Positions 8,382 to 47,221 of a stretch of DNA of 64,000 nt are shown here, one piece after another. Location of the stretch: NCBI GenBank assembly GCA_963662275.1, contig OY759316.1, positions 2,595,820 through 2,659,819 of the forward strand, given 5' to 3'. Under the pieces are notes generated by a model. The model was not told where the DNA came from and made no database searches. It was given only the letters and a program-made list of their open reading frames with translations. The position numbers and the translations under genes are program-made. Position 1 is the stretch's first letter; every line of letters begins with the position of its first letter. The stretch comes from Candidatus Cloacimonadales bacterium (GTDB taxonomy: Bacteria > Cloacimonadota > Cloacimonadia > Cloacimonadales > DAONDQ01).

Positions 8382-9500
8382 TTATTTCAACAGCAGCATC
8401 TTCCTGATATTGGTATTCTTACTATCGACTTTCAATCTGCAGAAATAAAGACCGCTGCAGACACACTTGCCTTCCTCATCTAATCCTCCCCAAAGAAGAT
8501 TGTGCGTGCCTGCAGCGTATGACATATCTGTTAATGTTTTCACTTTCTGTCCTTTCATATTATAGATTGTAATTTCAACTTGAGATTTGTTAGTTACATT
8601 AAAGCTAACAGTCGTCTCTGGATTGAAAGGATTTGGGTAATTGGTTAGCTGATCATGAGTAGTGAAAACACTCGTCTGATCATCGATTCCTGTTGCCAGG
8701 GATACTCTTACCCAGTCACCTGCGATATAGTAAGTTAACAGAATGGAATGGTCTCTTGAATCATACGTGGGATATACGAAGTGATTTCCGGCAAAGATCA
8801 ATGTCGGAGCTGAAGAGAAATTGGCATCTTCCCGATATAATCCTAATAGATAATAACCAGCGATATAGTAAGTACCATCTACATCCCTGACGATACCGTC
8901 AGGATTGTTAAGTGTGGTTGTTGCTAGTGTTGTAAATGTGGAATCGGAAAGACTCACTGCATAAATATGACTATTATAAGCATCACTGATGACAACAATG
9001 CGGTTGTTCTCTCTTTCCAGTAAAATGCCATTGGGTTTCACCAAACTATCGTTCGCCACGAAAGTCCAGTAAGAGTGATCACTGATTCTATACTTGTAAA
9101 TTGTATTCAGGCTTGGACACGAGATGAAGAGATGCCCCAATGAATCGGAAGCAATACTTGATAAATACTTTGTACTTTCTCCAGCAAAAGTGAAATTTAA
9201 AATCTGTTCATCTGTATTCAGATCATAGGCTATTAATTTACGTCCATTCCCAATCCCAAAGACAGTATCTCCCACGATTTCCATCCCATCAACAAAACCC
9301 GCATCCTGATCTAAATAAGTTTGATTTCCATCACTATCTATCTGTACTAGCGCTCCACCTCTTCCATTGGAAACCAATAAGCGATTACGAACAGCATCGA
9401 TAACAATCTTTTGAGGGTGACTGAGTAGATTTTGAGCCTGACTGAGTTGAGGAATTGTTAAGCAGATTAAGACGAAAATTAGCGTAATCATAGGTTTCAT
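8382..9500 (-). CDS. Secreted beta-propeller-like protein with T9SS C-terminal sorting domain
   Basis: NYPNPFNPETTVSF...ITIYNMKGQKVKTL...GLYFCRL CTD. The ORF track starts at 9554, but a signal peptide MKPMITLIFVLICLTIPQLSQAQ begins at the Met at 9500. Confidence 0.75.
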   Translation of the reverse strand: MKPMITLIFVLICLTIPQLSQAQNLLSHPQKIVIDAVRNRLLVSNGRGGALVQIDSDGNQTYLDQDAGFVDGMEIVGDTVFGIGNGRKLIAYDLNTDEQILNFTFAGESTKYLSSIASDSLGHLFISCPSLNTIYKYRISDHSYWTFVANDSLVKPNGILLERENNRIVVISDAYNSHIYAVSLSDSTFTTLATTTLNNPDGIVRDVDGTYYIAGYYLLGLYREDANFSSAPTLIFAGNHFVYPTYDSRDHSILLTYYIAGDWVRVSLATGIDDQTSVFTTHDQLTNYPNPFNPETTVSFNVTNKSQVEITIYNMKGQKVKTLTDMSYAAGTHNLLWGGLDEEGKCVCSGLYFCRLKVDSKNTNIRKMLLLK

Positions 9501-9582
9501 ATTTAGAATTTTTTGTATCTTTTCCGAACCTTGAACATCTTTCTTTTTCTTCACGCTTTGACTCCTTGCTTCCTGTTGAGAT

Positions 9583-10275
9583 TCAATTATTTTTAATCGC
9601 TGACATGAATAGATCTAAATACTGATAATAGAATTTCTCTTCATCAAAAACATCCTGGATTTGCTTGGTCTTTTCCGGACTGAAAGCTACATTCAGGATT
9701 GTCCTTAAAGTATATGCAAAGTACTTATCCAGGTAACCAGCATCAATGTTACCCCGTATGCTGTGATCCTGAATTCCTAATTCAAATGCATCCCTAACAA
9801 TGGCAATGATCCTATCGAGAAGATGGTCGAATTGATCATAAAGCTCCAACTCTATTTTACTCTTATCCAGTGAGTTGTAATCTTCATACAGATGCAGCTT
9901 GAAGTATCCCTGGTTCTGTTTATAGAAGTGATAATACTCTTCACCAAAAGCATAGATTTTAGCATAGCCCGTGCTCTTTCTATTCATTTTCTGGCTTAGT
10001 AATTCATATCTGCTTCTCATTCCCTCCAAGTGAATATGCATGAAGAGTTCTTCCTTGCTTTTTACGTAAGTGTAGAGTGTTGATTTGCTGAAACCTGCTG
10101 TTAAGGCAACTTCATCAATGGATGTATTTTCGTATCCTTTCTCAAAAAACAGCCTCTTTGCTACTTCGATAATAAAGTCTCTTTTCAGTTCTGCTTGTCT
10201 TTCTTTCAAACTTAACTGTTCCATAATACCTCTATTTTGTGAAATACTACTTACAGTTCTATAAATCGTACTCAC
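9583..10275 (-). CDS. TetR/AcrR family transcriptional regulator
   Basis: N-terminal HTH ERQAELKRDFIIEVAKRLFFEKGYENTSIDEVALTAGFSKSTLYTYVKSKEELF. Confidence 0.85.
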   Translation of the reverse strand: MSTIYRTVSSISQNRGIMEQLSLKERQAELKRDFIIEVAKRLFFEKGYENTSIDEVALTAGFSKSTLYTYVKSKEELFMHIHLEGMRSRYELLSQKMNRKSTGYAKIYAFGEEYYHFYKQNQGYFKLHLYEDYNSLDKSKIELELYDQFDHLLDRIIAIVRDAFELGIQDHSIRGNIDAGYLDKYFAYTLRTILNVAFSPEKTKQIQDVFDEEKFYYQYLDLFMSAIKNN

Positions 10276-10434
10276 GGTACGATTGTCAAGGGAATACTTG
10301 TAAAATATGTTTATGTTTCAAAAGTAGGAAATCATAATAATAAAAATTGACATCATAATAACAAATACAGTTTTTGTTAAAGTAATAGATAAATTTTGTT
10401 TATCGCTTTTGGGAAAATGAATAAGGGTGGGTAA
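10276..10434. promoter_or_regulatory. Divergent promoter/operator region between TetR and the HD/KaiC-like operon
   Basis: AT-rich 159 bp with TTGACA at ~10349 and direct repeats ATCATAATAA x2. Confidence 0.4.
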
Positions 10435-12315
10435 ATGGCAGATACTTTAATTGATTCAGTATTATTGGATTTTTTTCTAACATCATCAGATCCCATTATT
10501 CCAATGGATAATGTCCATTTGATAAACGAATTCCTGTCAGCAAGCGATAATGAAGAAAAAACGGAATTAGCACAACGTTTAATGATTCAAACCATACGTA
10601 ACCTCGGTTTTGAAACACGCTGTATTGAAAGAATCCTACAGGGATATATCACTTCACTTTTAAAAGTAGATTACGGGTTCCGCTGGATAACAAAAGACTA
10701 TCGTTCTCATTTTCTGCATTCAGTCTATAATTATCTTACAGGTTTGTATTTAATGCGACATGATTTTCTCGGGAATATTCTTTTCTCTAAAATTGATTTT
10801 GAAGCTCTCGACAATATTTATACAAGTCCATCTTCTGAGTTACTACATTCATATCCTCGATGTGATTATGAAAAATTCCACAAGCGTTGGGCGATTGCAG
10901 CATTTTTCCATGATATTTCATATTTATCCCAAATTAGCTACAATGCAATGAATAAGGAAGCTAAGCACAATTTTCAAACGGATAATCAAGTGTTTTCTGT
11001 AAGTTTACCACATTTTGAAGATAATGTCCATATTGATGAGACATCGCAAATTAAACATCACTTAAGTGCATTAGTGAACTTAATTCCTCCATATTTGTTA
11101 CAACATAATGCCCTCGATATTATTAGCAGTCGTATAGCAGGCAGGCTCGGGACATTCGAAAATGCAGATATCAGGAGATCTTTAAAAAGAATAATTAAAG
11201 AGAATTTTAAAGGAGAATATGGATCACACGATATTTTAAGCGGTCTGTTTGCAATTAAGAAATATTACTATGAATTAAATTCATATTTTAATAGTACAGA
11301 AAATCCGATAACTAGTACAGAAAAAATACAAATCATTCAAGAAATGAAGGATTTTACAGATGCAATCAGCAATGCAGCTCTTCATCATTATGATAAATAT
11401 ACAGTCGGAATTTTCGAACCAACCAAAAAAGAAAAGATTTCCTGGAAAACATTACCATTATTGTATTTACTGATTCTTGTAGATGAATTACAGATCTGGA
11501 ATAGAGAATTAGTATGCGAATTCAAACCAATTGTTTATTATGATCTACAAATAAATGATACTGCATTAAGTGATTGGTTTAAGGATAATTGGACAAATAT
11601 GCTCCTGCGTTTTGTTCAATCATATCAAAATATTGACACTACAAAGTCAATGACCTTGGAAATACCTTTTACGAAAAATATGCTTAAGCAAATAGATTCA
11701 TTGAGAAGATTAGGTACACATGATCAATGCAAGATTACTAACCTAATTGAAAATTCTAATTATTCTTATAAAATTTATAATGGGAAACTATCAATATCTT
11801 TTGTAGTTTGTCCAGTATTAGCACAATTAGAGAATGTGATTAATTTTGAATTATCGAATTATGAAGTTTTACGAATTAAGAGTGTTCTCGAATCCAGTTG
11901 GAAAGAATTTAGTGCAAATCATCAGACATATTCACTTTTCATGGAATATCTGATGCTTTTTGAAGATTTGCTTGAGGAGAATAATACCAATAAGGCTTAT
12001 TCTATTAATAAAAACAATCTAATCAATAAATATCTCGTTAAATCTGACAAATTATATACACAATTAATTTCCTCAGATCAACTGTGGATACCTATCGAAT
12101 GCATAACTTTCAATCATATGAGCAGCTTTGATTCTTCCCATTTAGAGCAATTAGAATTAATGTATGATGGTAAAACTACACAAAATATACAATCAATCAT
12201 GGATCATTGTCTCAATGATTTTAAAAAACATATATCAATTAAAGGAATAAATAACCAGGCTCTTATTCATATCGTAGGTAAGATAAGAAACATTATTCAA
12301 AATTTTATAGCATAA
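10435..12315 (+). CDS. HD-domain (phosphohydrolase-like) protein, 626 aa, with a large uncharacterised C-terminal region
   Basis: Motif set RSHFLHSVYNYLTGLY (H...H), WAIAAFFHDISY (HD), GSHDILSGLF, LLILVDELQIW (D), in the order expected for HD/dGTPase-like domains. 15 bp upstream of the next gene. Confidence 0.55.
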   Translation: MADTLIDSVLLDFFLTSSDPIIPMDNVHLINEFLSASDNEEKTELAQRLMIQTIRNLGFETRCIERILQGYITSLLKVDYGFRWITKDYRSHFLHSVYNYLTGLYLMRHDFLGNILFSKIDFEALDNIYTSPSSELLHSYPRCDYEKFHKRWAIAAFFHDISYLSQISYNAMNKEAKHNFQTDNQVFSVSLPHFEDNVHIDETSQIKHHLSALVNLIPPYLLQHNALDIISSRIAGRLGTFENADIRRSLKRIIKENFKGEYGSHDILSGLFAIKKYYYELNSYFNSTENPITSTEKIQIIQEMKDFTDAISNAALHHYDKYTVGIFEPTKKEKISWKTLPLLYLLILVDELQIWNRELVCEFKPIVYYDLQINDTALSDWFKDNWTNMLLRFVQSYQNIDTTKSMTLEIPFTKNMLKQIDSLRRLGTHDQCKITNLIENSNYSYKIYNGKLSISFVVCPVLAQLENVINFELSNYEVLRIKSVLESSWKEFSANHQTYSLFMEYLMLFEDLLEENNTNKAYSINKNNLINKYLVKSDKLYTQLISSDQLWIPIECITFNHMSSFDSSHLEQLELMYDGKTTQNIQSIMDHCLNDFKKHISIKGINNQALIHIVGKIRNIIQNFIA

Positions 12316-12330
12316 TTATAGGAGGATAGC

Positions 12331-15300
12331 ATGGGAACTACGAAAATCTTGAAATATAATCAGGAAAGTATAAATTTTCTGAGAAGCTTGGAAGAGCATG
12401 TAAACAAAGCATATACTACTGACAGAAACTCTACAGCGAAGGAAAATACAGGAAAAATCAAGGAACTTCAAAGAAGACATGTTGGTTGGACTATGATTTC
12501 TTTTGAAGACGATTTTGTTACTAAACTTACTGAAATTCGATTAAATCAGGCAGAAACTAATAATGAAGAGGAAAAAATAATTAATGAAATTGATCAATAT
12601 CTATTGATGCTCTCGCTGTTAGATAATATCTTTTATGGCTATCCTTCTGAAAGATCAATGGAAGATTGTAATGGCAAGCCAATTAATAATCACCTAAATA
12701 ATTGGGTAAGAACATTTTATCATCTTACGCTCATAAATAACAAGGCAGGAGATGATGTAGATAAAAAAAAGGCACACGCATATGAAATTCAAATTTTAAT
12801 CAAGGATTTTATATCTATACCAAAGGATTTTGCCAGTTCCTATTTTGGGTACGATACCGGGATATCAGGTTTAAACCAACTCTTGATGGGTGGTTTTCTA
12901 CTCCCTGAGGACAGTACTGCAATGATAACAGTAGATGGTGAGTCTGGTGTTGGTAAAACAACTTTTGTGGTAAATTTAGTCTGTGCTATTCTGAAAAATT
13001 GTGGAGATACTGTTTTTAAACACAATAGAGATACAATAATACACAAACATGCTGAAAGACTTCCCATATTCATCGATTACTTCATATTAGAACAGTCTTA
13101 TAATAATATTAAACGATGCATAACCAACTTTAACTTACTACCCATTCTGAAAGATACCCATGACGTGGTAACAGCAAATCCAATTGATCCAAAGGATACT
13201 GTTTATTATGCTGAAGAACTTGATGGTCTTCTTAATATTTGCCAGAAAAACTCAAGAAAACTTGTTATGTCAATTCACCCTGTCCCTATGTGTTCTGCCG
13301 CAGATTTACTTCAACAGGTTCAAAAATGTGAAGAACCTTTTCAAGCAAAAAGCGTACTTGAAGATAGACACATCATTGTAATCGATTCAATCAATGCAGT
13401 TTTGGATATGGATATTGAGCAATCTAAATGGCGACAGGTATTACAGGCATTACGCTCTATACTTGGTGGAAAGAAATCTAAATGCCCAAATGAAGGAAAA
13501 AATAAAAAAGAAAACAATACAATATTGATCCTAACTCAAGAAAAAGACCCTTCCAAAAAGGATACAATGGTTGAGTATTTCTGCGATGTCGTCATGGGGT
13601 TTGAAAAGAAAAATATCAACGGTGAATACCTTCGATATATTGAATTGATCGAAAGCCGTTTTCAGGATATGTGTTTCGGAAGACATCCCTTCCATTTTTC
13701 AACTAAAGGGCAAGCTTCCTTTGGGATCTACCCTTCAGCCTCTGCTTTAATGGAATTAATTCCCAACCAATTAAAACAGATTCAGCCAGATAAAAAAACA
13801 CTTGAGTTTGGAATAAAAATCGATGGAATCCTGAAATTCTTTGTGAATACCCATTTGAAGAATAGCGGCATGAAACCATATTTTCTTAAGAATTCAGTCA
13901 GTAATCTCAATGGCGAAAAAGGATGTAATAAATCTGCATTTTCAAAGTTCTTTACACTAAGTTCATATCGGGATGAAAGATGGATATCCATGTCTGAAAG
14001 AGCATTTGAAAATGATCTTTACGAAACAGAAGTTACAGATAAGGAGTGCTATCATGAAATGAATTATTCTGAAAAAGAAGCTGACAAAATATGGAATGAA
14101 ATAAAAGAAATGAAACCATATCCAAAATCTTATAACCCTGCAAATCCTTCGGAAACTGAAAAGCATTGTAATCCGATAGATAAAGCAATCGGGATGATTG
14201 TAAAATTTGGGGAAAACTATGAAGAAAATGAACATGATGTGGTTATTGATGCACCTTGGGGAAAAGTAATCATACCAGCAAATGCATTAAAAGTAGAACC
14301 TAAATTCTGGGGGAGAGTATCAGATGTTATTTGTCATTTTGAAGTAAAAAATTTCTCTGAAGAATACTATCTTGAACAAATCATGGATGTCATTCGTGCA
14401 ATAGAATCATATCATGTATATGAAGAAATCCCTAAAACTTTTGAGAACTTGCTTAGAAGAATGAAATTATCAAGGATATTGTGGGAGAAGACTAGTTTAC
14501 GAGAACCAGAAGTAGAAGCAACTCCTAATAATGTGGAATTTAGCCCATCGTTTGCTATTTATAAAGATAAGGACTACATTAATGATAATTCTAATGTTAA
14601 AGTAGAAGATAGGAATATCTACAATTCATCTATTTTCTTCTATCATGAATCATTACCAATCAAAGTAAGAAGGTTGGTGTTGGATAATACAGAAAACCTG
14701 ATCGATATTTTCAAGCAAATCGATGCCCAGGATTTTATCACAACCATTACTCATTTCGGTTTGGCAAAGGGAATTACGATCTTAATTGTCAATCAAGTCG
14801 GTAGGGGATCTCGCAATCAGATCAATGACATTTGCAATGCCATTGCTGATAATATTTTTGAATTCCAGAGAGAATACTTTTGCGGAGGCTGGTATTCAGT
14901 ACTTCATATCAAGCGATCATCAAACAGTTGGCATAATCGAATGTACTATAACATTTATAAAAGGCACGATGAGCTTTTGGAATTGCAGGATACATTTTCC
15001 TTTATATCAAGTTTTCATAATGAACTGAAGGAGTTAATACCAATTCGTCTATTTCTCCCTGGAAAATCACAAGCTGAAATTGATATGTATGCGAATCTAT
15101 CTATTGCCTTAAATCCTTCAAATAGAGATTTTCCAGATATGAATTATAGTATTGAAAGAGATAAGAGATTACCATATAAGGATTCACACGAACAGTGGCA
15201 TACATATCTGAAAGAAATGATCATCTACAGTATGACACATCCGCAAGTGGAAGTAATTAAGGCAAGTGATCCATTTACGGACATTTCTATTATCATAGAA

Positions 15301-16629
15301 GATGAAAGCGTTAAGGATGCTTTGACGATTAGTTGTATTCCCGGTCACTTAATCAAAAGGTATAAGACAAATTTACTCAGGCTTACAGATTTTATCAATT
15401 TCAGTCCTCGGGACAACCAGCTTCCTTTCATTGATAATGCGGTTGATTTCATAGCTGATACTTGGATGGAAATTGGTAATCTCAATTCTACAACACCCAA
15501 CGGTAGATTCGGCAAGACTCATTACTACCTTAAACCTTCCTCTCTTCAATTTATCTCTAATGAGTCAAATAGAGACAATTGTCACTTTTCCTGGATAGAA
15601 CCTGACCTGCTTTTTAACCCTGTGATTGATATCAGCCATCACAGTGATTCTGATGTTCAAACAGCACATGCTCTTGCCTATCCTTTTTATATCAATCCAA
15701 GGTTTGATCTGATAATCCGCCATAAAGATGCTAAAGATGCTAAAGATGATAAGGTGAAATATCATTTCGGTTCGACAACGACAGAAGATTACTTCACATT
15801 TTTCATGGAGCTATTGTTTAAGAATAGGTCTATTAGGAATTCCGTGGCTGAATTTATAAGCAATGCAAGTGAATCAAGTATAGGATATCAAATAAATGAT
15901 ATTCCTTTTGCACAGAAAGATACAGAGGATATTACAAACCATACTTTTATTTCCAGAAACTGGTTTTCATCACACCAGCAATTTATTGATATTTTAAAAA
16001 GCAATTTATCCCCAGAAGAATTTAGTAATATGTGTTTTAAATATATCGTTCCAAAAGTATTCTCTTATTCAACCTGGTATTTAGGCGTACCACTTAATAG
16101 TCCGCGAAAAGACAGAGCCTGTGAGATTATTGTCAAAATGACTGAATATCATGATTTAGCGAATTTCCAACTGAATGGCATCGGTATTCAATTGGGAAAT
16201 TACGCTTTCAGGGATGAATGTTATAAATATTACCCTCATTTAGCATATCATGAAATTCTAACCGGAATAGGGAACATCCATTCTTTCCGTGATAATGCAA
16301 ATCATAATAGTACCGGTATTCCTTTGGCTTCCATGGATTGTTTTTATGAATTAATTACTCCCATTGGAGGTTTGCTGCAAAATGTACATCAAATGCTCAA
16401 ATCCACTATGTCATCTTGTCCTTTGAATAGCGATCTAATATCAAGGATTATTGGTCAAATTACTAATATTTTCACAGCATATACCTCGGACAATTTATGT
16501 AATGAATGCTATTTCAATTATCTGACAAATATAAATAGAGAAAAGTTATCTCGACGAGCCTGTGATTGTTGGTTAGGTGCGTTATTCGGTTTAGTACAAT
16601 CAGATTGTCCCGAGGAAAATAATTGTTAG
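12331..16629 (+). CDS. Giant (1432 aa) protein with tandem KaiC/RecA-like ATPase domains (first catalytic-looking, second degenerate) and a Cys/His-rich C-terminus
   Basis: TGISGLNQLLMGGFLLPEDSTAMITVDGESGVGKTTFVVNL (KaiC/RadA/DnaB-type Walker A context), HIIVIDSINAVL (Walker B), ILILTQE, GEYLRYIELIESRFQDMCFGRHPFHFSTKGQASFGIYP (KaiC C-terminal signature). Second copy ITILIVNQ...REYFCGGWYSVLHIKRSSNSWHNRMYYNIYKR has no Walker A. GGAGG RBS upstream. Confidence 0.6.
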   Translation: MGTTKILKYNQESINFLRSLEEHVNKAYTTDRNSTAKENTGKIKELQRRHVGWTMISFEDDFVTKLTEIRLNQAETNNEEEKIINEIDQYLLMLSLLDNIFYGYPSERSMEDCNGKPINNHLNNWVRTFYHLTLINNKAGDDVDKKKAHAYEIQILIKDFISIPKDFASSYFGYDTGISGLNQLLMGGFLLPEDSTAMITVDGESGVGKTTFVVNLVCAILKNCGDTVFKHNRDTIIHKHAERLPIFIDYFILEQSYNNIKRCITNFNLLPILKDTHDVVTANPIDPKDTVYYAEELDGLLNICQKNSRKLVMSIHPVPMCSAADLLQQVQKCEEPFQAKSVLEDRHIIVIDSINAVLDMDIEQSKWRQVLQALRSILGGKKSKCPNEGKNKKENNTILILTQEKDPSKKDTMVEYFCDVVMGFEKKNINGEYLRYIELIESRFQDMCFGRHPFHFSTKGQASFGIYPSASALMELIPNQLKQIQPDKKTLEFGIKIDGILKFFVNTHLKNSGMKPYFLKNSVSNLNGEKGCNKSAFSKFFTLSSYRDERWISMSERAFENDLYETEVTDKECYHEMNYSEKEADKIWNEIKEMKPYPKSYNPANPSETEKHCNPIDKAIGMIVKFGENYEENEHDVVIDAPWGKVIIPANALKVEPKFWGRVSDVICHFEVKNFSEEYYLEQIMDVIRAIESYHVYEEIPKTFENLLRRMKLSRILWEKTSLREPEVEATPNNVEFSPSFAIYKDKDYINDNSNVKVEDRNIYNSSIFFYHESLPIKVRRLVLDNTENLIDIFKQIDAQDFITTITHFGLAKGITILIVNQVGRGSRNQINDICNAIADNIFEFQREYFCGGWYSVLHIKRSSNSWHNRMYYNIYKRHDELLELQDTFSFISSFHNELKELIPIRLFLPGKSQAEIDMYANLSIALNPSNRDFPDMNYSIERDKRLPYKDSHEQWHTYLKEMIIYSMTHPQVEVIKASDPFTDISIIIEDESVKDALTISCIPGHLIKRYKTNLLRLTDFINFSPRDNQLPFIDNAVDFIADTWMEIGNLNSTTPNGRFGKTHYYLKPSSLQFISNESNRDNCHFSWIEPDLLFNPVIDISHHSDSDVQTAHALAYPFYINPRFDLIIRHKDAKDAKDDKVKYHFGSTTTEDYFTFFMELLFKNRSIRNSVAEFISNASESSIGYQINDIPFAQKDTEDITNHTFISRNWFSSHQQFIDILKSNLSPEEFSNMCFKYIVPKVFSYSTWYLGVPLNSPRKDRACEIIVKMTEYHDLANFQLNGIGIQLGNYAFRDECYKYYPHLAYHEILTGIGNIHSFRDNANHNSTGIPLASMDCFYELITPIGGLLQNVHQMLKSTMSSCPLNSDLISRIIGQITNIFTAYTSDNLCNECYFNYLTNINREKLSRRACDCWLGALFGLVQSDCPEENNC

Positions 16630-16795: not shown

Positions 16796-18137
16796 CTAAT
16801 TAAGATGCATGATTTTACGAACCTGAGTTTCCTCTCCTTGTATAGTTTTCAGGAAATAGATACCAGATGCCAGATCTTTTTCATTAATGTTCAATACCTG
16901 GTTGGGAAAAGCATCTACAGATTTAACAAGTTGACCTTTTAAATTATACAGGCGTAGAGTCACACTAGTGTTTGATCTGCTCTTGATCATCAAATGCAAA
17001 TCAGTTGTAAAAGGATTTGGAAATACGGTTACTGTCATCCTCTGAACAGAAGGAATATTACTATCATCATTCAATGTTGGAGGTTGCCATGTAGTGGTAA
17101 TCCGTTGCTCATATTCAGGGACAGAGTTATTCAAATGATAAGCTGTTTCCACAATTTGGTTACCGTCCTGTGAAACAGCAAATTCCTTTGATTGATAATT
17201 TACCCAATTCGGATCTGAAAAAGTTTGGGTAGTGATGGTGGATAGATGATTATTTTCATAAGTAAAGAGCAATTGATTTTGCATTAACCAATCATGGTCA
17301 TACCAGCTCTGATCAAGAAGATCATCAATCAAGGGAAAACTCTGATTCGATAAAATCCAATCATAAGGGTTATCTGTTTGTCCAATGATATCGTTGATAG
17401 AGCCAACAGACACTTCCAAGCCTTTTCCAAGAGTTATTGGTAAAAGATGGGAAATCAAATTGATGAACGAAACACCGGTTGTTGCATCGTTCGAGTTATA
17501 AACCCTGGTCACATTCTCATAATTTACCCAATTAAGTGAGTCCTGTGATGTCAGAATCAATTCGCTAATTATCCTACCTCGGTTATCCAGTTCAAAAGAA
17601 CTCTTTTTAAATATAGAGGTTTGAAAGCCAGGTTTCCAGGTATAAACTGTATCCAAATCCTGGTTATTATAGAGGATTCCCATGCGAAGATTATCATTGA
17701 ATATCCCCGTGAAGATGTCCTTATTTGCCAAATTCAGGGCAACGATTCGATTTTCAGAATCATACGATACTCTTAACCGTTGCACTGGATTCATTGGGGT
17801 AATATACACCATAGCATTCGTTACATAATGATGAGTAGGTTCATAACTGAATACAGTTTTGCTATTAATTATCCAACTACCGCTATTAATATCCCAGTTG
17901 TAGGTCAGAAGACTATCCACCGAATTGGTGACTGTGTCATTATAATAAAATTCATCCCTGGCATTTATATGCCAGCCGAAATTATCGATAATCTCACGTA
18001 CCTGGCTTAAAACCAGAGTATTACGATAATTATCTTTGACACCTGATTTCACAGCGATGCCAGAGAGATTATTACTGATGGAAAAAAATAATGTAGGAAT
18101 AACAAGAAAGCTCAAAAAAAGGTAAATATTCTTCACT
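16796..18137 (-). CDS. Secreted protein with T9SS C-terminal sorting domain
   Basis: C-terminal VFPNPFTTDLHL...LRLYNLKGQLVKSV...GIYFLKT CTD. Likely GTG start at 18137 (MKNIYLFLSFLVIPTLFF signal peptide) with a GGAGGT RBS; the ORF track uses a TTG at 18151. Confidence 0.7.
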
Positions 18138-18256
18138 AATGGTACCTCCAATCTTTAATAGATTGACTTGATTGGAAATAGTATGAATGTTGTCAAGTAA
18201 TTAACTATCGCAATATCAAATAAGAAATCATTCGGTTATCGGGAAGTATATTTATT

Positions 18257-18703
18257 TCAATCAGCGAACAAACTGGAAATTTTTAAACGAAGGATGTGTA
18301 AATCTGGAAAACAAATGAGGAGATAGTGGTCTATTACGAGGAAGTAAGCCCAGAAACTGATAGGTCCAAGCCTTTTAGGTAGAGCAGCATGAAATTTTGG
18401 AATAATTGATGGTAAACTTATCTGTGATTGCTGTTTTCCCCAAAAAGCGGTTTCATCGTTATGTGCTTTGGTTTTAATTATATGCTTACCCTCGGGGTAT
18501 TCACTGATCAAAGGATTGGATGGAATCTCCTTTTTCCTTTTCGAAGGCAGCCAGGCATACAACTCCTCTACTCTACTTATCAAAGATAAATGTGCTTTCA
18601 GAGCTTTAATGGCTTTCCGTAAATCCTCCAAATCTCCGATAGTCTCTGCTTCGCTCCAGAGTAATATATCTTCATTGTCAAAAGCCAGATGCAAAGCTAT
18701 CAT
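18257..18703 (-). CDS. Hypothetical protein (148 aa)
   Basis: ORF only; no recognisable motif. Confidence 0.3.
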   Translation of the reverse strand: MIALHLAFDNEDILLWSEAETIGDLEDLRKAIKALKAHLSLISRVEELYAWLPSKRKKEIPSNPLISEYPEGKHIIKTKAHNDETAFWGKQQSQISLPSIIPKFHAALPKRLGPISFWAYFLVIDHYLLICFPDLHILRLKISSLFAD

Positions 18704-19260: not shown

Positions 19261-19543
19261 GATTATAACTATTCCAATTGAGGTTTCTGTTTCAGATGCA
19301 GAGAATCAAACTCTCTCGAAAAGATGGGCGTACTTCCGCACGCCCCTACTGCCACCCTCTCTTCATCTGAAGGGAGAAATGGGTCAGTGTGGATATTTCG
19401 GAGTGAGAGAGCATAGTGTACGCTCCAACAGAGCCACGTCTTCGGAAAAATAGAGCCACCTAATTCGGAGATGAGAGCCACTCTTCTATTTTCAATAATT
19501 AATACAGGTAATATACAAAAAAATAAGCTATAACTAATCTTTT

Positions 19544-19596
19544 TGCGACGGCTGCCGTGAAGTGAGGCCGTAGGCCGAGCGAAGCGGCAGCCGTCG
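19544..19596 (-). terminator. GC-rich perfect hairpin downstream of istB (inside the IS, before the terminal repeats)
   Basis: gcgacggctgccg ... cggcagccgtcgc: 13-bp perfect inverted repeat in an AT-rich background. Confidence 0.45.
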
Positions 19597-19635
19597 CCGG
19601 GAAAGTTGTAGTACCATCCCAAGTATTAACTATCG

Positions 19636-20382
19636 TTATTCTTTCTTAATGCCATTGCGTTCTCTCATTGACACTTTACCATCGATAAAAATAGGATAGG
19701 AATCGTGTATAATCCGGTCAAGGATGGCATCGGCAAGGGTTTCCTGACCAATCTTCTCATGCCATCCTCCGGTTCTGAACTGAGAACAGAAGATCGTTGA
19801 TGAGTGCTGATGCCTCGCTTCGATAATCTCCAAAAGATCTCTTGCCTCTTGTTCTCTGAGTGGTGTCAGCAGCCATTCATCAAGTATCAGCAGTTTGATC
19901 TGCTTGTATTGTTTTATGACTTTCTTAAAAATACCTTCACCTCTGGCAACTGCCAGGTCATCCAGCAATTCGGGAAGTCGTATATATCTGACAGGATAAT
20001 AGTTCCGGCAGGCTGCTATCCCGAAAGCACAACCCAGCCAGGATTTCCCGTTTCCTGATGCTCCCATAATGATTATATTCCGATTTTCGCTGATGTAACT
20101 GCAGGTTGATAAACGGATAATCTCAGATCGATCCAGCTTTCTGTCATCATGATATTCTACGTCTTCAATACTTGCCTGGCTGAACTTCAAGTTTGCCTTC
20201 TTAATTAGCCTCTGCAGTCTGTTATTTTTGCGTCTGGCCCATTCAGCATCTACGAGCAGACTGAAGCGTTCTTCGAAAAGCAAATCCTTAAATGCACCAT
20301 CATGTAATTGCTGGCAGAAAGTATCAGCCATAGCACTCAAATGCATCTCGTGAAGCTTATTGACTGTTGATTGGCTGATCAT
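19636..20382 (-). CDS. istB: IS21 family helper ATPase IstB
   Basis: Walker A GASGNGKSWLGCAFG and IstB-like DnaC-type ATPase layout; overlaps the istA stop by 4 nt. Confidence 0.9.
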   Translation of the reverse strand: MISQSTVNKLHEMHLSAMADTFCQQLHDGAFKDLLFEERFSLLVDAEWARRKNNRLQRLIKKANLKFSQASIEDVEYHDDRKLDRSEIIRLSTCSYISENRNIIIMGASGNGKSWLGCAFGIAACRNYYPVRYIRLPELLDDLAVARGEGIFKKVIKQYKQIKLLILDEWLLTPLREQEARDLLEIIEARHQHSSTIFCSQFRTGGWHEKIGQETLADAILDRIIHDSYPIFIDGKVSMRERNGIKKE

Positions 20383-21965: not shown

Positions 21966-22458
21966 TAATTCATGTTGGTTTTTTCTTTCAAAATAGCAAG
22001 GTGGCTCTATTTTAGCGAAGACGTGGCTCTAAAACTCCGTACAAGTGGCTCTCATTTAGAATATTATTCAGTCAGTGATACGAGATCAAACCAGATTGCA
22101 TTAGAATACAAGTTCAGAGCATTGCAGTCTAACTTTCAGGCATCCCCCCGTAATTTTCTTAACAATTAGTTTAGAAGCGTTTATAGTAACAGTCAAACGT
22201 TTTGCCGACTTTGAAAATCTGTTTAACATCACTGGTTGGTCAAAACTCCTAAACAGAAACTAGTGCAATTTGTAATTTACGGTAAACAGAAGAGTTGTGT
22301 TTTCACGGTAAAAGCAAAAAGCAGGTATTTTAATAAAACTTATAAAATTATGTGAGAAAATAAGATAACTATATAGAATGTCCATAATAAAACTGTACAA
22401 AAAAAGTGTCTCCGATCTTTTGTTCAAGCACTAAACCAAACCTAAGAAGGAGACACCC

Positions 22459-23837: not shown

Positions 23838-23914
23838 TCGGGATGTAGCGCAGCTCGGTAGCGCGTTCGGTTCGGGACCGAAAGGTCGCTGGTTCAAATC
23901 CAGTCATCCCGACC
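23838..23914 (+). tRNA. tRNA-Pro (anticodon CGG), CCA encoded
   Basis: Cloverleaf folded by hand: acceptor CGGGATG/CATCCCG, D-stem GCGC/GCGC, anticodon stem TTCGG/CCGAA with loop TTCGGGA, T-arm GCTGG-TTCAAAT-CCAGT, discriminator A + CCA. Closely resembles bacterial proK. Confidence 0.85.
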
Positions 23915-23999
23915 ATTTTTTTAAGCTCGAGTGCTTTGCTTCACTGCTGTGAAGTAATATGACAGATATGTTAGTAACAGTTTAATTTATGTTCTAGAT

Positions 24000-24100: not shown

Positions 24101-25972
24101 TTGCTTTACAACGCAATAAGAGGTAACATGTCCGAATTGCAGAAGCCTGAGATCAAGCTGGAAGTAAGGAAGAACCTGAAGAAGCTTCTCCCCTATATCT
24201 GGAAGGACAAGTACCTTTTCCTCTTCGGGCTTATCGCCATGATCATCACTTCCGGCATGAGACTTTTAGACCCTCTTATCCTGGCTCATATCATTGATTA
24301 CAGCGTTCCCAAGCACAACATGAAGGATATGTTCACCTATGCCGGATACTTCATTGGTGTGATAGCCTTATCAGGCTTACTATCCTATATCCAGATCATC
24401 CTGCTCTCTCGATTGGGAATCAAGATCATTACTGAATTCAAAGGGCATATCTTTGATCATTTATTAAAGCTGCCAATTTCCTATTTTGATAAGAACGCCG
24501 TCGGTGAGATCATCGCCCGTGTAGAAAGTGACAGTGAACGCGTTCGCATGCTCTTCACAGACTTGTCCGTAGCGATATTGGGTAATATCATTTTCTTCAT
24601 TGGTATCTTCAGTGTGCTGCTTGTTAAGCAATGGAAAATCACATCACAATTGATTGTACCACTTATCGTTATCATCGTTCTTTATTCATTTGTCATTCGA
24701 TATTTGAATAAGTTCTATAAGCGTTCTCGTGTCCTAAATGCGGATATCACTGCCAAGCTGACAGAGTTTTTACAGGGTATGCCCATTATCCAACTGTTCA
24801 ATCAGCAGAAGCGAATTACTGCAAATTTATTCAAATCCAGCAACGAAAAGAAGGATGTGGATATCAAGGCTTCTTTTGTGGAATATGGCTTCCAAGGGTT
24901 CTTTTTCTTCGTTTTTAACATACTTTTCATGATACTCATCATCTTACTCTCGGCACCGAAGATCATCGCCCATACTATGACGATTGGAACTCTCATCGTG
25001 TTTACGCAATATATCGCCCGTGTGATCTGGCCTCTGATGAATATCTCGGAGAACATCACCAACATCCAGAGAGCTTTTGTTTCCCTGCAGCGTATCTTCT
25101 CCATTACTGAATTGAAGACAGAATATGAAACCCTGGAAGGGAATGCAGAGCCGGTCTTCAATCATTCAATCGAATTCAGGAATGTCTGGTTTGCCTATGA
25201 TGAAAATGAATGGGTACTGCAGGATGTGAGCTTCTTCATTCCCAAAGGCGGAAAGATTGCCCTCGTTGGAGCTTCCGGTAGCGGTAAGACAACCACAATT
25301 AGTCTTATCTGCGGTTTCTACCGAATCCAGAAAGGTGAAATTCTGATTGATGGTGTGAATCTCTACAGCCTGGATATGAAAAAATGGAGACAGAAACTGG
25401 GATTGATTCTCCAGGATATCTATCTCTTCCCGGGTAACATTTTAGAGAATGTACGCATCTACAATGATGAGATAGATCAGTTGCAGGTTGATAAGGCAAT
25501 TCGATTAGTGCAGGCACAGGACTTTGTGAACCAACTGCCACATGGCTTATACTCAGAGCTGGCTGAAAGAGGACAGAATATCTCTCAGGGAGAAAAGCAG
25601 CTTATAAGCTTTGCTAGGGCGATTTGCTTTGAACCGGAAGTCGTCATTATGGACGAAGCAACTGCTTCCATTGACCAGCTCACGGAATCCCGCATCCAGA
25701 ATTCATTGCACACTATGCTGGAAGACAAAACGGCTATTATCGTGGCGCACCGGCTTGCTTCCATACTGGATTCAGATGAAATACTCATGTTTCATGAGGG
25801 TAAGATCATCCATCGGGGAAATCACAATGAATTGTTAGAAACATCGATAGAGTATAAAAGACTTGTAGAATTGCAGTTCTTATCAAATACAAATGAAGAG
25901 AGTTCGCCAAACCAAGAAGAATTGGCGAAGCGGAATTCGCCAAACCGAGAAGAGGATGCCAGCCATGAATGA
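24101..25972 (+). CDS. ABC exporter, fused permease/ATP-binding subunit (MsbA-like), partner 1
   Basis: Six N-terminal TM helices; Walker A GASGSGKTT, signature LSQGEKQLISFARAI, Walker B VIMDEATASID. Confidence 0.9.
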   Translation: MLYNAIRGNMSELQKPEIKLEVRKNLKKLLPYIWKDKYLFLFGLIAMIITSGMRLLDPLILAHIIDYSVPKHNMKDMFTYAGYFIGVIALSGLLSYIQIILLSRLGIKIITEFKGHIFDHLLKLPISYFDKNAVGEIIARVESDSERVRMLFTDLSVAILGNIIFFIGIFSVLLVKQWKITSQLIVPLIVIIVLYSFVIRYLNKFYKRSRVLNADITAKLTEFLQGMPIIQLFNQQKRITANLFKSSNEKKDVDIKASFVEYGFQGFFFFVFNILFMILIILLSAPKIIAHTMTIGTLIVFTQYIARVIWPLMNISENITNIQRAFVSLQRIFSITELKTEYETLEGNAEPVFNHSIEFRNVWFAYDENEWVLQDVSFFIPKGGKIALVGASGSGKTTTISLICGFYRIQKGEILIDGVNLYSLDMKKWRQKLGLILQDIYLFPGNILENVRIYNDEIDQLQVDKAIRLVQAQDFVNQLPHGLYSELAERGQNISQGEKQLISFARAICFEPEVVIMDEATASIDQLTESRIQNSLHTMLEDKTAIIVAHRLASILDSDEILMFHEGKIIHRGNHNELLETSIEYKRLVELQFLSNTNEESSPNQEELAKRNSPNREEDASHE

Positions 25973-27719
25973 GCATATTCGTTGGATAGGTAAACGCTGG
26001 TGGTCTAACCGGTATTATATCTTTTTACTGCTGCTAATGACATTGGTCAGCTCAGCAGTGGCGATCGGTTATCCTTTCCTTTTCAAGAAGCTGATCGATG
26101 TGCTCAATGCTATTCTTCTCCATCCAGACAAGTATCCGAGTCCGATGAAAGAAGTGTATAAAATATGCTGGTTCTTCCTCTGGGTAGGTGTGGCACAATT
26201 TATCTCCGCTTTCTATCCCGCAATGCGTGCATATATGAATCAGTACTTCGAACATCACTTGAGAATGGAGTTCTTTACGTATTGTACGAAAAAGGATTAC
26301 AAATTCTTCAATCACTTCCGTACAGGTGATTTGGTTACTCGCTTAACCAATGATTTGAGTGACTTCCCAAAGATCGGCTGGTTCCTCTGCTCCGGTATTT
26401 TCAGAGCACTGAGTTCCTTTTCCAGTATCTTTTTTAGTCTAATCGTCATGTTCAACCTGCATTGGAAACTGACCTTGCTATCTGTTGCCCCATTACCCCT
26501 GATGATGGTGATCTTCTACATTACTTCCAATCGTCTGTATCAGAACTTTCAGAAAAACCAGCAGGCAATCAGTAATATCAATAGTCAATTGGAGATGAGC
26601 TTTTCCGGTGTAAGAATCATTAAGTCCTTTGTCTGTGAAGAGAAGTATCAACGGTTTTTCAATATCGCTCTTCAGAAACGTTTCAAGACTGAGATGTCCG
26701 TTATCAAGCTGAATGCCGTTCTCGGTTTGATCTACCAGTATATTGGCTACATAGCACAGATATCTGTGATCGTGTTCGGTGGTTACCTTGTCGTGAAAGG
26801 TGAAATTACCGTTGGTACCTTCGTAGTATTCTATACTTATCTTTCCATGATGATCTATCCGCTATTGGATTTACCCCAGCTCTTTGTATCCGGCAAGCAG
26901 GCATTTGTTTGCATCGACCGCCTGGAAGAGATGAAGGACTTCCCCACTTCCTATACTAGCGAAACAGGTTTAAAGAAGATAGATCATTTGGAGTCCATAG
27001 AATTCAGGAATGTGAGCTTCCAATATAATGAGAAAACAAATATGATCCTGGATAATGTATCCTTCCGTTTAGAAAAAAGTGAAAAAACACTGATACTCGG
27101 AGCAATCGGTACTGGGAAATCAACAATACTGGGATTGATCACAGGTATTTTGAAACCCGAAGCAGGCGGTATATTCGTGAATGACATGCCAATTGAAGAT
27201 ATCGACCTGGTTTCCCTGCGTTCCAAGATAGGTTATGTTCCGCAAGAACCTCTGCTATTCACAGGAAGTATCAAGGAAAATATCCATTTCGGCAATGAAG
27301 CCCTTGACCAGGAATGGTATGATAAAGTACTGCATGCTTCTCAAATGTATGAAGAGATAGAACAATTCAAAGACAAGGACGAAACCTTACTTGGGCAGCG
27401 TGGAGTCAGTGTGTCCGGTGGTCAGAAACAGAGAATTGCCATTGCGAGGGCATTATCACGTCAGCCTGAGCTGCTGATATTTGATGATATTACAGCCAGC
27501 CTGGATGCTGATAATGAACAGAAACTCTGGAATGATATTCTACAGATATACCCTGATGTGACCTCCCTGATGGTATCGCATAGGTTATCAACTCTTCGAT
27601 ATGCGGATAGTGTGATCTTCCTTGATTCAGATCATAGACTTGTGAAGTCATCGCATGAAGAGCTCCTGGCAAATGATTCAGCCTACCAGACATTCATGCT
27701 GGAGCGGGAGAAAACGTAG
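25965..27719 (+). CDS. ABC exporter, fused permease/ATP-binding subunit, partner 2
   Basis: GAIGTGKSTIL, VSGGQKQRIAIARAL, LIFDDITASLD. Start placed at ATG 25965 (MNEHIRW), overlapping the upstream stop as ATGAATGA with a GAGGA RBS; the ORF track starts earlier at 25893. Confidence 0.85.
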   Translation: MNEHIRWIGKRWWSNRYYIFLLLLMTLVSSAVAIGYPFLFKKLIDVLNAILLHPDKYPSPMKEVYKICWFFLWVGVAQFISAFYPAMRAYMNQYFEHHLRMEFFTYCTKKDYKFFNHFRTGDLVTRLTNDLSDFPKIGWFLCSGIFRALSSFSSIFFSLIVMFNLHWKLTLLSVAPLPLMMVIFYITSNRLYQNFQKNQQAISNINSQLEMSFSGVRIIKSFVCEEKYQRFFNIALQKRFKTEMSVIKLNAVLGLIYQYIGYIAQISVIVFGGYLVVKGEITVGTFVVFYTYLSMMIYPLLDLPQLFVSGKQAFVCIDRLEEMKDFPTSYTSETGLKKIDHLESIEFRNVSFQYNEKTNMILDNVSFRLEKSEKTLILGAIGTGKSTILGLITGILKPEAGGIFVNDMPIEDIDLVSLRSKIGYVPQEPLLFTGSIKENIHFGNEALDQEWYDKVLHASQMYEEIEQFKDKDETLLGQRGVSVSGGQKQRIAIARALSRQPELLIFDDITASLDADNEQKLWNDILQIYPDVTSLMVSHRLSTLRYADSVIFLDSDHRLVKSSHEELLANDSAYQTFMLEREKT

Positions 27720-46979: not shown

Positions 46980-47221
46980 TGGTACTCCTTATTTCTACAA
47001 CCCACAGAATATAAAATATAATATTTATACGTAATTTTCATTCCATTGCTAGTTTTATCCAGTATCTTGCCGGATAGTATCCATTTTCTCTTTAGTCTAT
47101 CACGTTTTTGTTAATTGCATAGCTGTTTCTGGGGCGCCATCTATCTGATGGTGCTACGTGCTCTTTTAGAGGACGTATTCTCTTCACCGGCATTTCGATG
47201 GGGAAAATCACCGGATGACGG

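What the first reader, a model, noticed from the sequence alone, without database searches (positions are those of the whole stretch)
10435..16629. Uncharacterised two-gene operon: HD-domain protein plus giant tandem-KaiC/RecA-like ATPase
Two tightly linked genes (15-bp gap, both with strong RBS) encode a 626-aa protein with HD phosphohydrolase motifs and a 1432-aa protein whose residues ~170-480 match the KaiC/RadA/DnaB RecA-fold signature, including the KaiC C-terminal R-x-L-x-I-x-K-x-R...F-x-I motif. The pair sits between T9SS cargo genes, is read divergently from a TetR regulator, and lies 3 kb from IS21, IS4 and tRNA-Pro. The region looks AT-richer than the neighbouring housekeeping genes. 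A metal-dependent phosphohydrolase paired with a large P-loop NTPase is the usual logic of antiphage or nucleotide-signalling modules. I do not recognise HD + giant double-KaiC as any named system (not Avs, Lamassu, Gabija, Septu, Hachiman, PARIS and others).
Basis: partly seen in the sequence, partly recalled or inferred. Interest (0 to 1): 0.85.

Follow-up and report, generated by a model that had tools for sequence, protein, structure and literature searches.

The report
Rare HD-hydrolase plus giant KaiC-like ATPase cassette
Two tightly linked genes encode a very divergent metal-dependent hydrolase and a giant double ATPase related to the clock protein KaiC; the pair always travels together, looks horizontally acquired and matches no named system, so it is probably a new accessory (most likely defence-type) module whose function is still untested.

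The parts
10276..10434 (.). Intergenic region between the divergent TetR gene and gene A; presumed promoter region. It is not conserved in the paralogous locus.
   Evidence: Sequence read. blastn similarity to paralogous locus L001 starts only at 10423. Promoter-like hits do not exceed shuffled expectation.
10435..12315 (+). Gene A: 626-aa protein of a previously unannotated family in the HD/PDEase superfamily.
   Evidence: ORF. No Pfam, NCBIfam, PADLOC or PDB-sequence hit. 24 relatives among 1.84 billion representatives.
10687..11514 (+). HD/PDEase-fold core of A (about aa 85-360) with conserved RSHxxHS (90-96), FFHD (157-160), H265, H317 and LILVDELQxWxR (345-357).
11515..12312 (+). Variable C-terminal half of A (aa about 361-626), fold unknown. 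A role as an interaction region for B is inference only.
   Evidence: Poorly conserved in alignment A1. Low pLDDT beyond residue 360.
12320..12325 (+). Shine-Dalgarno AGGAGG for gene B, 5 nt upstream of its ATG.
   Evidence: Sequence read. A-B spacing is -64 to +15 nt across loci, with 4-nt overlaps in two loci.
12331..16629 (+). Gene B: 1432-aa ATPase with tandem KaiC-like RecA-fold domains.
   Evidence: ORF. Pfam KaiC above threshold, and in all 6 members scanned (best E 2.7e-19).
12331..12822 (+). B N-terminal region (aa 1-164), poorly conserved and unassigned.
   Evidence: Alignment A2. hhalign shows no relation to other parts of B.
12823..13770 (+). B KaiC-like domain 1 (aa about 165-480): Walker A GESGVGKT 203-210, E254-Q255, Walker B VIDS 350-353, ESRFQ 441-445. 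Predicted to be catalytically competent.
   Evidence: Pfam and NCBIfam KaiC hits. PDB profile search gives KaiC 8zn5 at E 1.2e-7, aligned to the CI half. Motifs are in 9 of 9 copies.
13783..15030 (+). B KaiC-like domain 2 (aa about 485-900), divergent: variant P-loop GEKGCNKS 528-535, FGENYE 625-630, Walker-B-like LVLDNTEN 782-789.
   Evidence: Collinear weak matches to KaiC CII (profile 509-565 and 746-843; best whole-chain E 0.008-0.01 for CII stretches). hhalign of domain 1 against domain 2 gives P 0.004, in register at the P-loops, with controls at P 0.47 or more.
15031..16626 (+). B C-terminal region (aa about 901-1432) with conserved motifs and three invariant Cys (1337, 1390, 1393). Fold unknown.
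   Evidence: Alignment A6. No PDB or Pfam hits. The AlphaFold2 model failed at pLDDT 33.
9583..10275 (-). Divergent TetR-family regulator. It is context specific to this locus and not part of the conserved unit.
   Evidence: Pfam TetR_N E 1.8e-14. Absent from all other loci.
24101..27719 (+). Pair of ABC exporter genes, orthologous to the pair directly downstream of B in two Cloacimonadota lineages. This is remnant synteny; here the pair is separated from B by a T9SS cargo gene, orf148, IS21, IS4 and tRNA-Pro, and is inverted.
   Evidence: Pfam. One-to-one 57-58% identity to the L003 and L008 ABC genes.

Best explanation
This is a self-contained, horizontally mobile two-gene cassette. Gene A encodes a highly divergent metal-dependent phosphohydrolase of the HD/PDEase fold. 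Its six conserved ligand-type residues (H95, H159, D160, H265, H317, D350) fit the two-metal subclass. Gene B encodes a giant ATPase built on a KaiC-like tandem of RecA-fold domains. The first domain has all catalytic motifs, the second has a variant P-loop and is probably regulatory, and both are flanked by family-specific N- and C-terminal regions. Shown: the anatomy, the strict A-then-B linkage, the rarity and the foreign composition. Inferred: the two proteins are co-translated and form a complex. B, probably a ring-shaped oligomer like KaiC, acts as an ATP-driven sensor or switch through its unique terminal regions. B licenses the HD hydrolase to cleave a phosphoester substrate, either nucleic acid or a nucleotide. 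The most likely biological role is conflict with phages or other mobile elements, following the 'effector plus oligomeric ATPase' logic.
For: Anatomy. Linkage: A lies directly upstream of B in 9 of 9 loci (window, L001, L003 group, L007 group, L011, L012, L020, L021, L025), with spacing of -64 to +15 nt. Unit of inheritance: the two paralogous copies in this genome are alignable only from 10423 to 16419, which is just the two genes. Accessory or HGT signature: there are only 24 A relatives among 1.84 billion representatives. Only 2 of 185,579 species-representative genomes carry B. Carriers are scattered over Cloacimonadota, Aminicenantes and unnamed lineages. The cassette is AT-richer than its flanks in 8 of 8 loci, by 3-14 points. 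Flanks differ between lineages. One copy is split by an integrase/IS91-type insertion. Selection: dN/dS is 0.32-0.37 for A and B against 0.13 for the adjacent ABC gene, with 3.6-fold lower dS. Across genomes where the ABC neighbours keep 57% identity, A and B keep only 26-33%. Remote stand-alone relatives of A sit beside a PADLOC DUF4238 defence gene and a type II methyltransferase, beside a WYL regulator, or in a prophage/ICE-like element next to an S24 repressor.
Confidence: 0.4

Rival explanations
1. This is a signalling module. The KaiC-like ATPase acts as a signal-transduction hub (active domain plus inactivated KaiC-like domain plus sensor region). It controls an HD-type phosphodiesterase that degrades a nucleotide second messenger, tuning envelope, export or surface-protein functions.
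Against: The ABC pair is absent from L001, L011, L012 and L025. T9SS-tail genes make up about 11% of large ORFs in this window, so adjacency is weakly informative. No cyclase or other second-messenger gene is linked. Extreme rarity, foreign GC, within-genome duplication and IS disruption are unusual for a core regulatory circuit. The GYP motif and the class I PDE signature HDxxHxG are absent (sequence).
Confidence: 0.25
2. This is a nucleic-acid processing or repair pair. A RadA/DnaB-like RecA-fold motor loads on single-stranded nucleic acid and works with a YhaM-like HD exonuclease in host RNA or DNA turnover.
Against: All significant profile hits are to KaiC/ArlH-type families, not RadA or DnaB. 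The repair context occurs in one locus only. A housekeeping role does not fit presence in 2 of 185,579 species representatives. No OB-fold or other nucleic-acid-binding domain was detected.
Confidence: 0.12
3. This is a selfish addiction-type cassette carried by mobile DNA, with a toxic hydrolase held in check by the ATPase and no benefit to the host beyond its own maintenance.
For: Foreign composition in all loci. The unit of duplication is exactly the two genes. Distribution is sporadic. IS elements are nearby in the window and inside the gene in L012.
Against: The cassette has no recombinase or terminal repeats of its own. It is not found on plasmids or viral contigs. A 6.2-kb, 2058-codon pair under purifying selection is far larger than typical addiction modules.
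Confidence: 0.08

Closest known systems
KaiC (circadian clock ATPase, Pfam PF06745) and KaiC-like ATPases (ArlH/FlaH, archaeal KaiC-like signalling ATPases)
   Same: B shares the RecA-fold P-loop domain with Walker A GxxGxGKT, a catalytic Glu after the second strand, Walker B hhhhDS, and the RxxxhxxxR...F.h segment. It shares the two-domain tandem layout and the pattern of an intact first domain with a degenerate second domain, as in 'inactivated KaiC' forms.
   Different: B has 1432 aa against about 520. It has an extra 160-aa N-terminal region and a 530-aa Cys-containing C-terminal region. Its second P-loop is GxxGxNK[ST]. It scores far below the KaiC equivalog threshold (28.7 against 408 bits). 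It has no kaiA or kaiB neighbours. Its obligatory partner is an HD-fold protein.
HD-domain phosphohydrolases and class I PDEases (YhaM, PDE8A, HD-GYP, PgpH, YqeK, SAMHD1, PhnZ)
   Different: A is undetectable with any Pfam, NCBIfam or PDB sequence profile and by Foldseek. It has about 90 extra N-terminal helical residues and a 260-aa variable C-terminal half. It has no GYP motif, no PDE HDxxHxG signature and no OB or other nucleic-acid-binding domain.
Two-gene 'effector + hexameric ATPase' antiphage systems (HerA-DUF4297, SIR2-HerA; PMC12198126)
   Same: The logic is the same: one enzymatic effector is encoded next to, and presumably assembled with, a ring-forming ASCE/RecA-like ATPase. Both are compact two-gene cassettes with sporadic distribution.
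   Different: The ATPase belongs to the KaiC branch, not the HerA/FtsK branch. The effector is HD-fold, not SIR2 or DUF4297. No PADLOC model matches. No experimental defence phenotype exists. This is an analogy only, not homology.
Cas3 / split Cas3''-Cas3' (HD nuclease plus ATP-driven motor)
   Same: An HD-superfamily hydrolase is paired with an ATP-driven RecA-fold engine. The split form is likewise two adjacent genes (established knowledge).
   Different: The Cas3 motor is a monomeric SF2 helicase, not a KaiC-like tandem. There are no cas genes or CRISPR array nearby, and no sequence match.
STAND NTPase conflict systems (nSTAND3, NACHT)
   Same: These are large multidomain NTPases with unique terminal sensor regions. 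All six B members give weak nSTAND3 hits (best E 3e-7).
   Different: The matches cover only the Walker A segment (197-234 against 18-54 of 155) and are below threshold for the window protein (11.7 against 27.2 bits). The rest of the domain aligns to KaiC.

Membership tests
KaiC superfamily domain (Pfam PF06745) | Profile match above the curated gathering score | tested here: met
   47.0 bits against a cut-off of 26.6, E 2.8e-12. All 6 family members match, best E 2.7e-19.
KaiC superfamily domain (Pfam PF06745) | Walker A GxxGxGK[ST], catalytic Glu and Walker B Asp conserved | tested here: met
   GESGVGKT 203-210, E254 and D352 are invariant. The Walker A and Walker B motifs are present in 9 of 9 copies.
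KaiC proper (clock protein, NCBIfam NF006799 equivalog) | Equivalog-level score and about 520-aa CI-CII architecture | tested here: not met
   28.7 bits against a cut-off of 408. The protein is 1432 aa with large extra regions.
KaiC proper (clock protein, NCBIfam NF006799 equivalog) | Tandem duplication of the RecA-like domain | tested here: inconclusive
   Collinear but individually weak matches to CII. hhalign of domain 1 against domain 2 gives P 0.004, in register at the P-loops, with controls at 0.47 or more. The structure model failed.
KaiC proper (clock protein, NCBIfam NF006799 equivalog) | kaiB and/or kaiA partner genes nearby | tested here: not met
   No such genes in the window or in any of the loci.
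KaiC proper (clock protein, NCBIfam NF006799 equivalog) | Autophosphorylation on CII Ser/Thr and hexamer formation | not testable with these tools
   Needs biochemistry or a confident multimer model.
HD-domain superfamily (Pfam PF01966 and related) | Match to an HD-family sequence profile | tested here: not met
   No HD family at E up to 10 for any of 8 members. No HD chain in PDB profile searches.
HD-domain superfamily (Pfam PF01966 and related) | Conserved H...HD...D metal-ligand motif | tested here: met
   H95, H159-D160, H317 and D350 are at least 90% conserved in 25 sequences. H265 is also invariant in the core family. Motifs are in 9 of 9 copies.
HD-domain superfamily (Pfam PF01966 and related) | HD/PDEase all-helical fold | tested here: met
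HD-domain superfamily (Pfam PF01966 and related) | Metal-dependent phosphohydrolase activity | not testable with these tools
   Needs an enzyme assay. Model coordinates could not be inspected for ligand geometry.
Any known or candidate antiphage system (PADLOC-DB v2.0) | Match of either protein to a defence-system HMM | tested here: not met
   The best hits are mad8 at E 0.0056 (P-loop only) and PDC-M49B at E 0.34. Nothing is consistent over 25 A-superfamily members.
Any known or candidate antiphage system (PADLOC-DB v2.0) | Location in defence islands, next to known defence genes | tested here: not met
   No defence genes flank the pair in the contexts recovered; two loci sit on short contigs with little flank. 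Only remote stand-alone relatives of A have such neighbours.
STAND NTPases (nSTAND3 / NACHT) | Profile match over the whole NTPase domain above threshold | tested here: not met
   11.7 bits against 27.2 for nSTAND3 and 13.3 against 26.7 for NACHT, covering only the Walker A segment.

The most novel reading that the evidence does not exclude
The cassette is a new class of antiphage or anti-mobile-element immunity. A KaiC-type double-ring ATPase, an engine so far known from clocks, motility and signalling, senses infection through its unique terminal domains. It then switches on a founding member of an unrecognised HD-hydrolase superfamily, whose short stand-alone relatives are single-gene defence effectors.
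Probability: 0.3. Interest if true: 0.8.

Novelty: new variant of a known kind. Interest (0 to 1): 0.6.

Why it matters
If the reading is right, three things follow. First, it adds a KaiC-type ATPase to the engines used by compact effector-plus-ATPase modules. KaiC-like proteins outside cyanobacteria are numerous and mostly unexplained. Second, it defines a new, sequence-invisible branch of the HD/PDEase superfamily. This branch includes about 400-aa stand-alone proteins found in prophage and defence-gene neighbourhoods that current annotation leaves blank. Third, it gives a concrete, clonable 6.2-kb target from poorly studied anaerobic-digester lineages (Cloacimonadota, Aminicenantes and relatives), where almost no accessory systems have been characterised. 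If it turns out to be a signalling module instead, it would be a rare bacterial example of the 'KaiC-like hub' proposed for archaea.

Tried and rejected
1. HD detection by sequence failed everywhere: Pfam and NCBIfam on A, Pfam on all 8 and PADLOC on all 25 members, and PDB profile searches with A1 and A5. Only the fold comparison worked.

2. Foldseek of the A model against PDB and against viral structures gave only noise. The afdb50 library was unavailable.

3. AlphaFold2 of B residues 480-1432 with 6 sequences failed at pLDDT 33, so the second domain and C-terminal region have no structural assignment.

4. I suspected the B C-terminal region was a periplasmic solute-binding-protein-like domain, based on the motif WYLGVPxxSPRKDxAxEI. 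PDB and Pfam searches with a C-terminal-only profile were negative. hhalign against MalE scored no better than shuffled controls. I rejected the idea as unsupported.

5. The third word-indexed homology search, run with the A alignment, returned only the two sequences already known.

6. tRNA-Pro island hypothesis: there is no att-like repeat of the tRNA 3' end. IS21 is self-contained, with 32-nt inverted repeats. I rejected this hypothesis.

7. TetR as part of the system: it is absent from every other locus. I rejected this too.

8. T9SS-cargo adjacency as a functional link: such genes make up about 11% of large ORFs here, so I judged the evidence too weak.

9. Literature searches for KaiC plus HD or KaiC in defence found nothing relevant. 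The key survey (Makarova 2017) is not held.

10. Promoter and terminator scans did not exceed the shuffled background.
Full report
OBSERVATION. A is at 10435-12315 (+, 626 aa) and B is at 12331-16629 (+, 1432 aa). A's TAA stop (12313-12315) is followed by AGGAGG (12320-12325) and B's ATG at 12331. A is preceded by a weaker purine-rich AAGGGTGG. The stated context is also correct. A TetR-family gene is read divergently (9583-10275). Proteins with T9SS C-terminal sorting domains lie on both sides (8382-9554 and 16796-18151). IS21 istB/istA lie at 19636-21965, with 32-nt inverted repeats at 19430 and 21999. An IS4-type DDE transposase lies at 22459-23781, and tRNA-Pro(CGG) at 23839-23915. GC is 0.30-0.35 across the pair, against 0.36-0.43 in its surroundings.

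PROTEIN B. B matches Pfam KaiC (PF06745) at 47 bits against a cut-off of 26.6. All six family members scanned match it, with a best E of 2.7e-19. NCBIfam gives only sub-threshold KaiC, archaeal KaiC-like and ArlH/FlaH hits, so B carries a KaiC-superfamily domain but is not a KaiC orthologue.

- The family alignment shows an invariant Walker A (GESGVGKT, 203-210), E254-Q255 at the position of the KaiC catalytic glutamates, Walker B (VIDS, 350-353) and ESRFQ (441-445).
- A profile of the family searched against all PDB sequences finds KaiC chains first (8zn5, E 1.2e-7). The matched stretches are collinear with both halves of KaiC: profile 180-461 aligns with CI, and 509-565 plus 746-843 align with CII.
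- The second half carries a variant P-loop (GEKGCNKS, 528-535; N or H replaces the usual Gly), an FGENYE strand (625-630) and an LVLDNTEN Walker-B-like strand.
- hhalign of residues 165-480 against 485-900 aligns the two P-loops in register at P = 0.004. Four control pairings give P of 0.47 or more.

I therefore regard 'tandem KaiC-like' as moderately supported, with an active first domain and a degenerate second one. The first 164 residues and the last 530 or so have no detectable relatives. The C-terminal region has many invariant positions, including Cys1337, Cys1390 and Cys1393. An AlphaFold2 run on residues 480-1432 failed (pLDDT 33). My impression that the C-terminus resembled a solute-binding protein did not survive testing.

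PROTEIN A. No Pfam, NCBIfam, PADLOC or PHROG family matches A meaningfully. Scanning every family member, and searching PDB sequences with family profiles, gave no HD hit either.

- Eight A-type proteins that share only 23-25% identity with the window protein keep RSHxxHS (H92, H95), FFHD (157-160), H265, H317 and LILxDELQxWxR (D350, E351) invariant.
- An exhaustive HMMER search of 1.84 billion cluster representatives found only 24 relatives. The more distant ones (390-970 aa, E 4e-9 to 8e-4) carry the same motifs.
- With that 25-sequence alignment, AlphaFold2 gave a confident all-helical model of residues 1-420 (pLDDT 83, pTM 0.81).

A founds an unannotated, sequence-invisible branch of the superfamily. 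By established knowledge of the family, the six-residue pattern H..HD..H..H..D is the one seen in two-metal HD enzymes. I could not inspect the model coordinates to confirm that these residues converge on one pocket.

LINKAGE AND DISTRIBUTION. Every B homologue whose upstream DNA is available has an A homologue directly upstream on the same strand. The loci are:

- the window itself;
- a second, paralogous pair in the same sample and almost certainly the same genome (L001; 68% and 62% identity; both copies are recorded on a 4,378,784-bp contig);
- two Cloacimonadota lineages from anaerobic digesters (L003-L006, L013, L017; and L007-L010, L018, L019);
- a third Cloacimonadota genome (L011, L014);
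- an Aminicenantes genome (L012) and a related metagenome contig (L020);
- GCA_021106755.1 (L021);
- a further metagenome lineage (L025).

Spacing between the genes runs from a 64-nt overlap to a 15-nt gap, with 4-nt overlaps in two loci. This spacing suggests co-translation. Walker A and B motifs are present in all nine B copies, and the HD-type motifs are present in all nine A copies.

The family is extremely rare. Five B clusters were found in a 5.8-billion-protein index. Two of 185,579 species-representative genomes carry it. Four metagenome loci were found. There were no matches on viral contigs or plasmids.

SIGNATURES OF AN ACCESSORY, MOBILE UNIT.
- The two paralogous loci in this genome are alignable at DNA level only from 10423 to 16419. 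That span is the two genes without flanks.
- Flanking genes differ between lineages.
- The cassette is AT-richer than both flanks in all 8 loci tested. Examples are 0.42 against 0.53 (L003), 0.43 against 0.56 (L011) and 0.33 against 0.45 (L021).
- In L012 the B gene is split after codon 913 by an integrase plus IS91-type transposase. The displaced 820-aa ORF aligns to B residues 764-1398 at E 1e-99.
- Between the related loci L003 and L008, dN/dS is 0.37 for A and 0.32 for B, against 0.13 for the adjacent ABC gene. dS is 0.33 for the cassette and 1.21 for the ABC gene. The genes are under purifying selection, so they are functional, but they are less constrained. They may also have been exchanged more recently than their flank. 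This rests on a single comparison and could be affected by codon bias.
- There is no att-like repeat of tRNA-Pro, and IS21 is self-contained. The nearby mobile elements are therefore neighbours, not carriers.

CONTEXT CLUES TO FUNCTION. The pair itself never sits beside recognised defence genes. Its neighbours include TetR, peptidases, T9SS cargo, HU, ETF, LptFG, ABC exporters, DinB, RecA/RecX, deoxynucleoside kinase, ZnuABC, PTA/SHMT and oxaloacetate decarboxylase.

Two recurrent neighbours were noticed. The first is an ABC-exporter pair directly downstream of B in two Cloacimonadota lineages. It is one-to-one orthologous (57-58% identity) to the pair at 24101-27719 in the window. This is remnant synteny, and it contrasts with the 26-33% identity of A and B across the same genomes. 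The pair is absent from four other loci. The second is a T9SS-tail or BACON surface protein next to, or one gene from, the cassette in six loci. Such genes make up 5 of 45 large ORFs in this window, so this is weak evidence.

The remote, mostly stand-alone relatives of A have more conflict-like surroundings:
- P0031 follows an S24/LexA-type repressor in an element with a serine recombinase and ParB-methyltransferases.
- P0033 is next to a gene matching the PADLOC DUF4238 defence model (E 1.3e-14) and lies near a type II methyltransferase.
- P0030 lies among a WYL regulator, a TRIP13-like AAA protein and a PARG-like gene.

MECHANISM. Shown: an HD-fold hydrolase gene and a tandem KaiC-like ATPase gene form an obligate, co-oriented, closely spaced pair that is inherited as a unit. 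Inferred: the proteins assemble. B forms a ring like other KaiC/RecA-type ATPases. Its intact first domain hydrolyses ATP, while its degenerate second domain and unique terminal regions sense or regulate. The output is the phosphoester hydrolysis catalysed by A.

I rank the possible roles as follows:
- Conflict or defence, about 0.4. The grounds are rarity, sporadic cross-phylum distribution, foreign composition in every locus, duplication, IS disruption, relaxed constraint, and the contexts of the remote relatives.
- Nucleic-acid processing or repair, about 0.12.
- A selfish addiction-type cassette, about 0.08.

COMPARISON WITH KNOWN SYSTEMS. B is a member of the KaiC superfamily but fails every test for being KaiC itself: equivalog score, size and kaiA/kaiB partners. 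A meets the motif and fold criteria of the HD superfamily but fails the sequence-profile criterion. Neither protein matches any PADLOC model. The weak nSTAND3 and NACHT hits cover only the Walker A segment. In logic, the closest known systems are two-gene 'effector plus hexameric ATPase' defences such as HerA-DUF4297 and SIR2-HerA (PMC12198126) and split Cas3 (HD nuclease plus ATP motor). Both are analogies, not homologies. Literature searches found no description of an HD plus KaiC-like cassette.

VERDICT. This is a real, conserved, very rare two-gene cassette made of a new HD-fold family and a new giant architecture of KaiC-like ATPase. It carries a clear horizontal-transfer signature and has no named counterpart. 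Its function is unproven, and the defence reading is plausible but lacks direct neighbourhood support. I rate it a new variant of a known kind (enzymatic effector plus oligomeric ATPase modules), with interest 0.6.

Noticed in passing
window 24101-27719 (+); L003 11585-15092 (-); L008 7289-9040 (-): A pair of ABC exporter genes is one-to-one orthologous (57-58% identity) to the pair directly downstream of B in two Cloacimonadota lineages. In the window the pair is inverted and separated from B by a T9SS cargo gene, orf148, IS21, IS4 and tRNA-Pro. This is remnant synteny or a loose functional link; the pair is absent from four other loci.
   Followed up: partly
L001 7821-14206 (same sample ERZ21878447; both copies recorded on a 4,378,784-bp contig): The same genome carries a second, paralogous A+B pair (68% and 62% identity, A' 723 aa, B' 1401 aa). 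It sits in an unrelated neighbourhood next to a gene for a surface protein of more than 6800 aa and an HU gene. DNA similarity covers only the two genes.
   Followed up: yes
L012 10001-17750: In an Aminicenantes genome the B gene is split after codon 913 by an inserted tyrosine integrase plus IS91-type (Y2) transposase. The downstream 820-aa ORF is the displaced C-terminal part (E 1e-99).
   Followed up: yes
window 53505-55520 (+): An integrase plus IS91-type transposase pair shares 39-40% identity with the element that split B in L012, so the same kind of element is present in this genome.
   Followed up: partly
window 56593-60759 (+): A second strongly AT-rich block (GC 0.30-0.33) holds three co-oriented ORFs (436, 233 and 699 aa) immediately after the integrase/IS91-type pair. 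The 436-aa and 699-aa ORFs, the two tested, have no PDB sequence hits. This may be cargo of that element and is another candidate accessory module.
   Followed up: partly
P0029-P0039; loci L023 8001-9269, L027 8001-9263, L028 8001-10913: There is an unannotated wider superfamily of HD-like proteins (390-970 aa, no Pfam hits) sharing the motifs RDHxxHS, FHDxGYPxE, DHG, LHN and LCDELQxWxR. Three members with usable context lie by an S24 repressor in a prophage/ICE-like element, by a PADLOC DUF4238 defence gene plus a type II methyltransferase, and by WYL, AAA and PARG-like genes.
   Followed up: partly
window 3581-4885, 8382-9554, 16796-18151, about 45335-46988, about 47341-50242; L001, L003, L007, L011: T9SS C-terminal sorting-domain proteins are very frequent here (5 of 45 large ORFs). 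One, or a BACON-domain surface protein, lies next to or one gene from the cassette in six loci. This is probably a feature of variable regions rather than a functional link.
   Followed up: partly
window 19430-22030: A complete IS21-family element is present, with 32-nt, 94%-complementary terminal inverted repeats flanking istA (20379-21965) and istB (19636-20382). It is followed by an IS4-type DDE transposase gene (22459-23781) and tRNA-Pro(CGG) at 23839-23915. No att-like duplication of the tRNA end was found.
   Followed up: yes
window 18257-18703 (-): A 148-aa ORF between the T9SS cargo gene and IS21 has no Pfam match and no counterpart in the other loci.
   Followed up: no
L003 vs L008 (A, B and ABC genes): Synonymous divergence of the cassette (dS about 0.33) is 3.6-fold lower than that of the adjacent ABC gene (dS 1.21), although amino-acid identities are similar. 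This suggests recent exchange of the cassette between related Cloacimonadota, or strong codon bias.
   Followed up: partly
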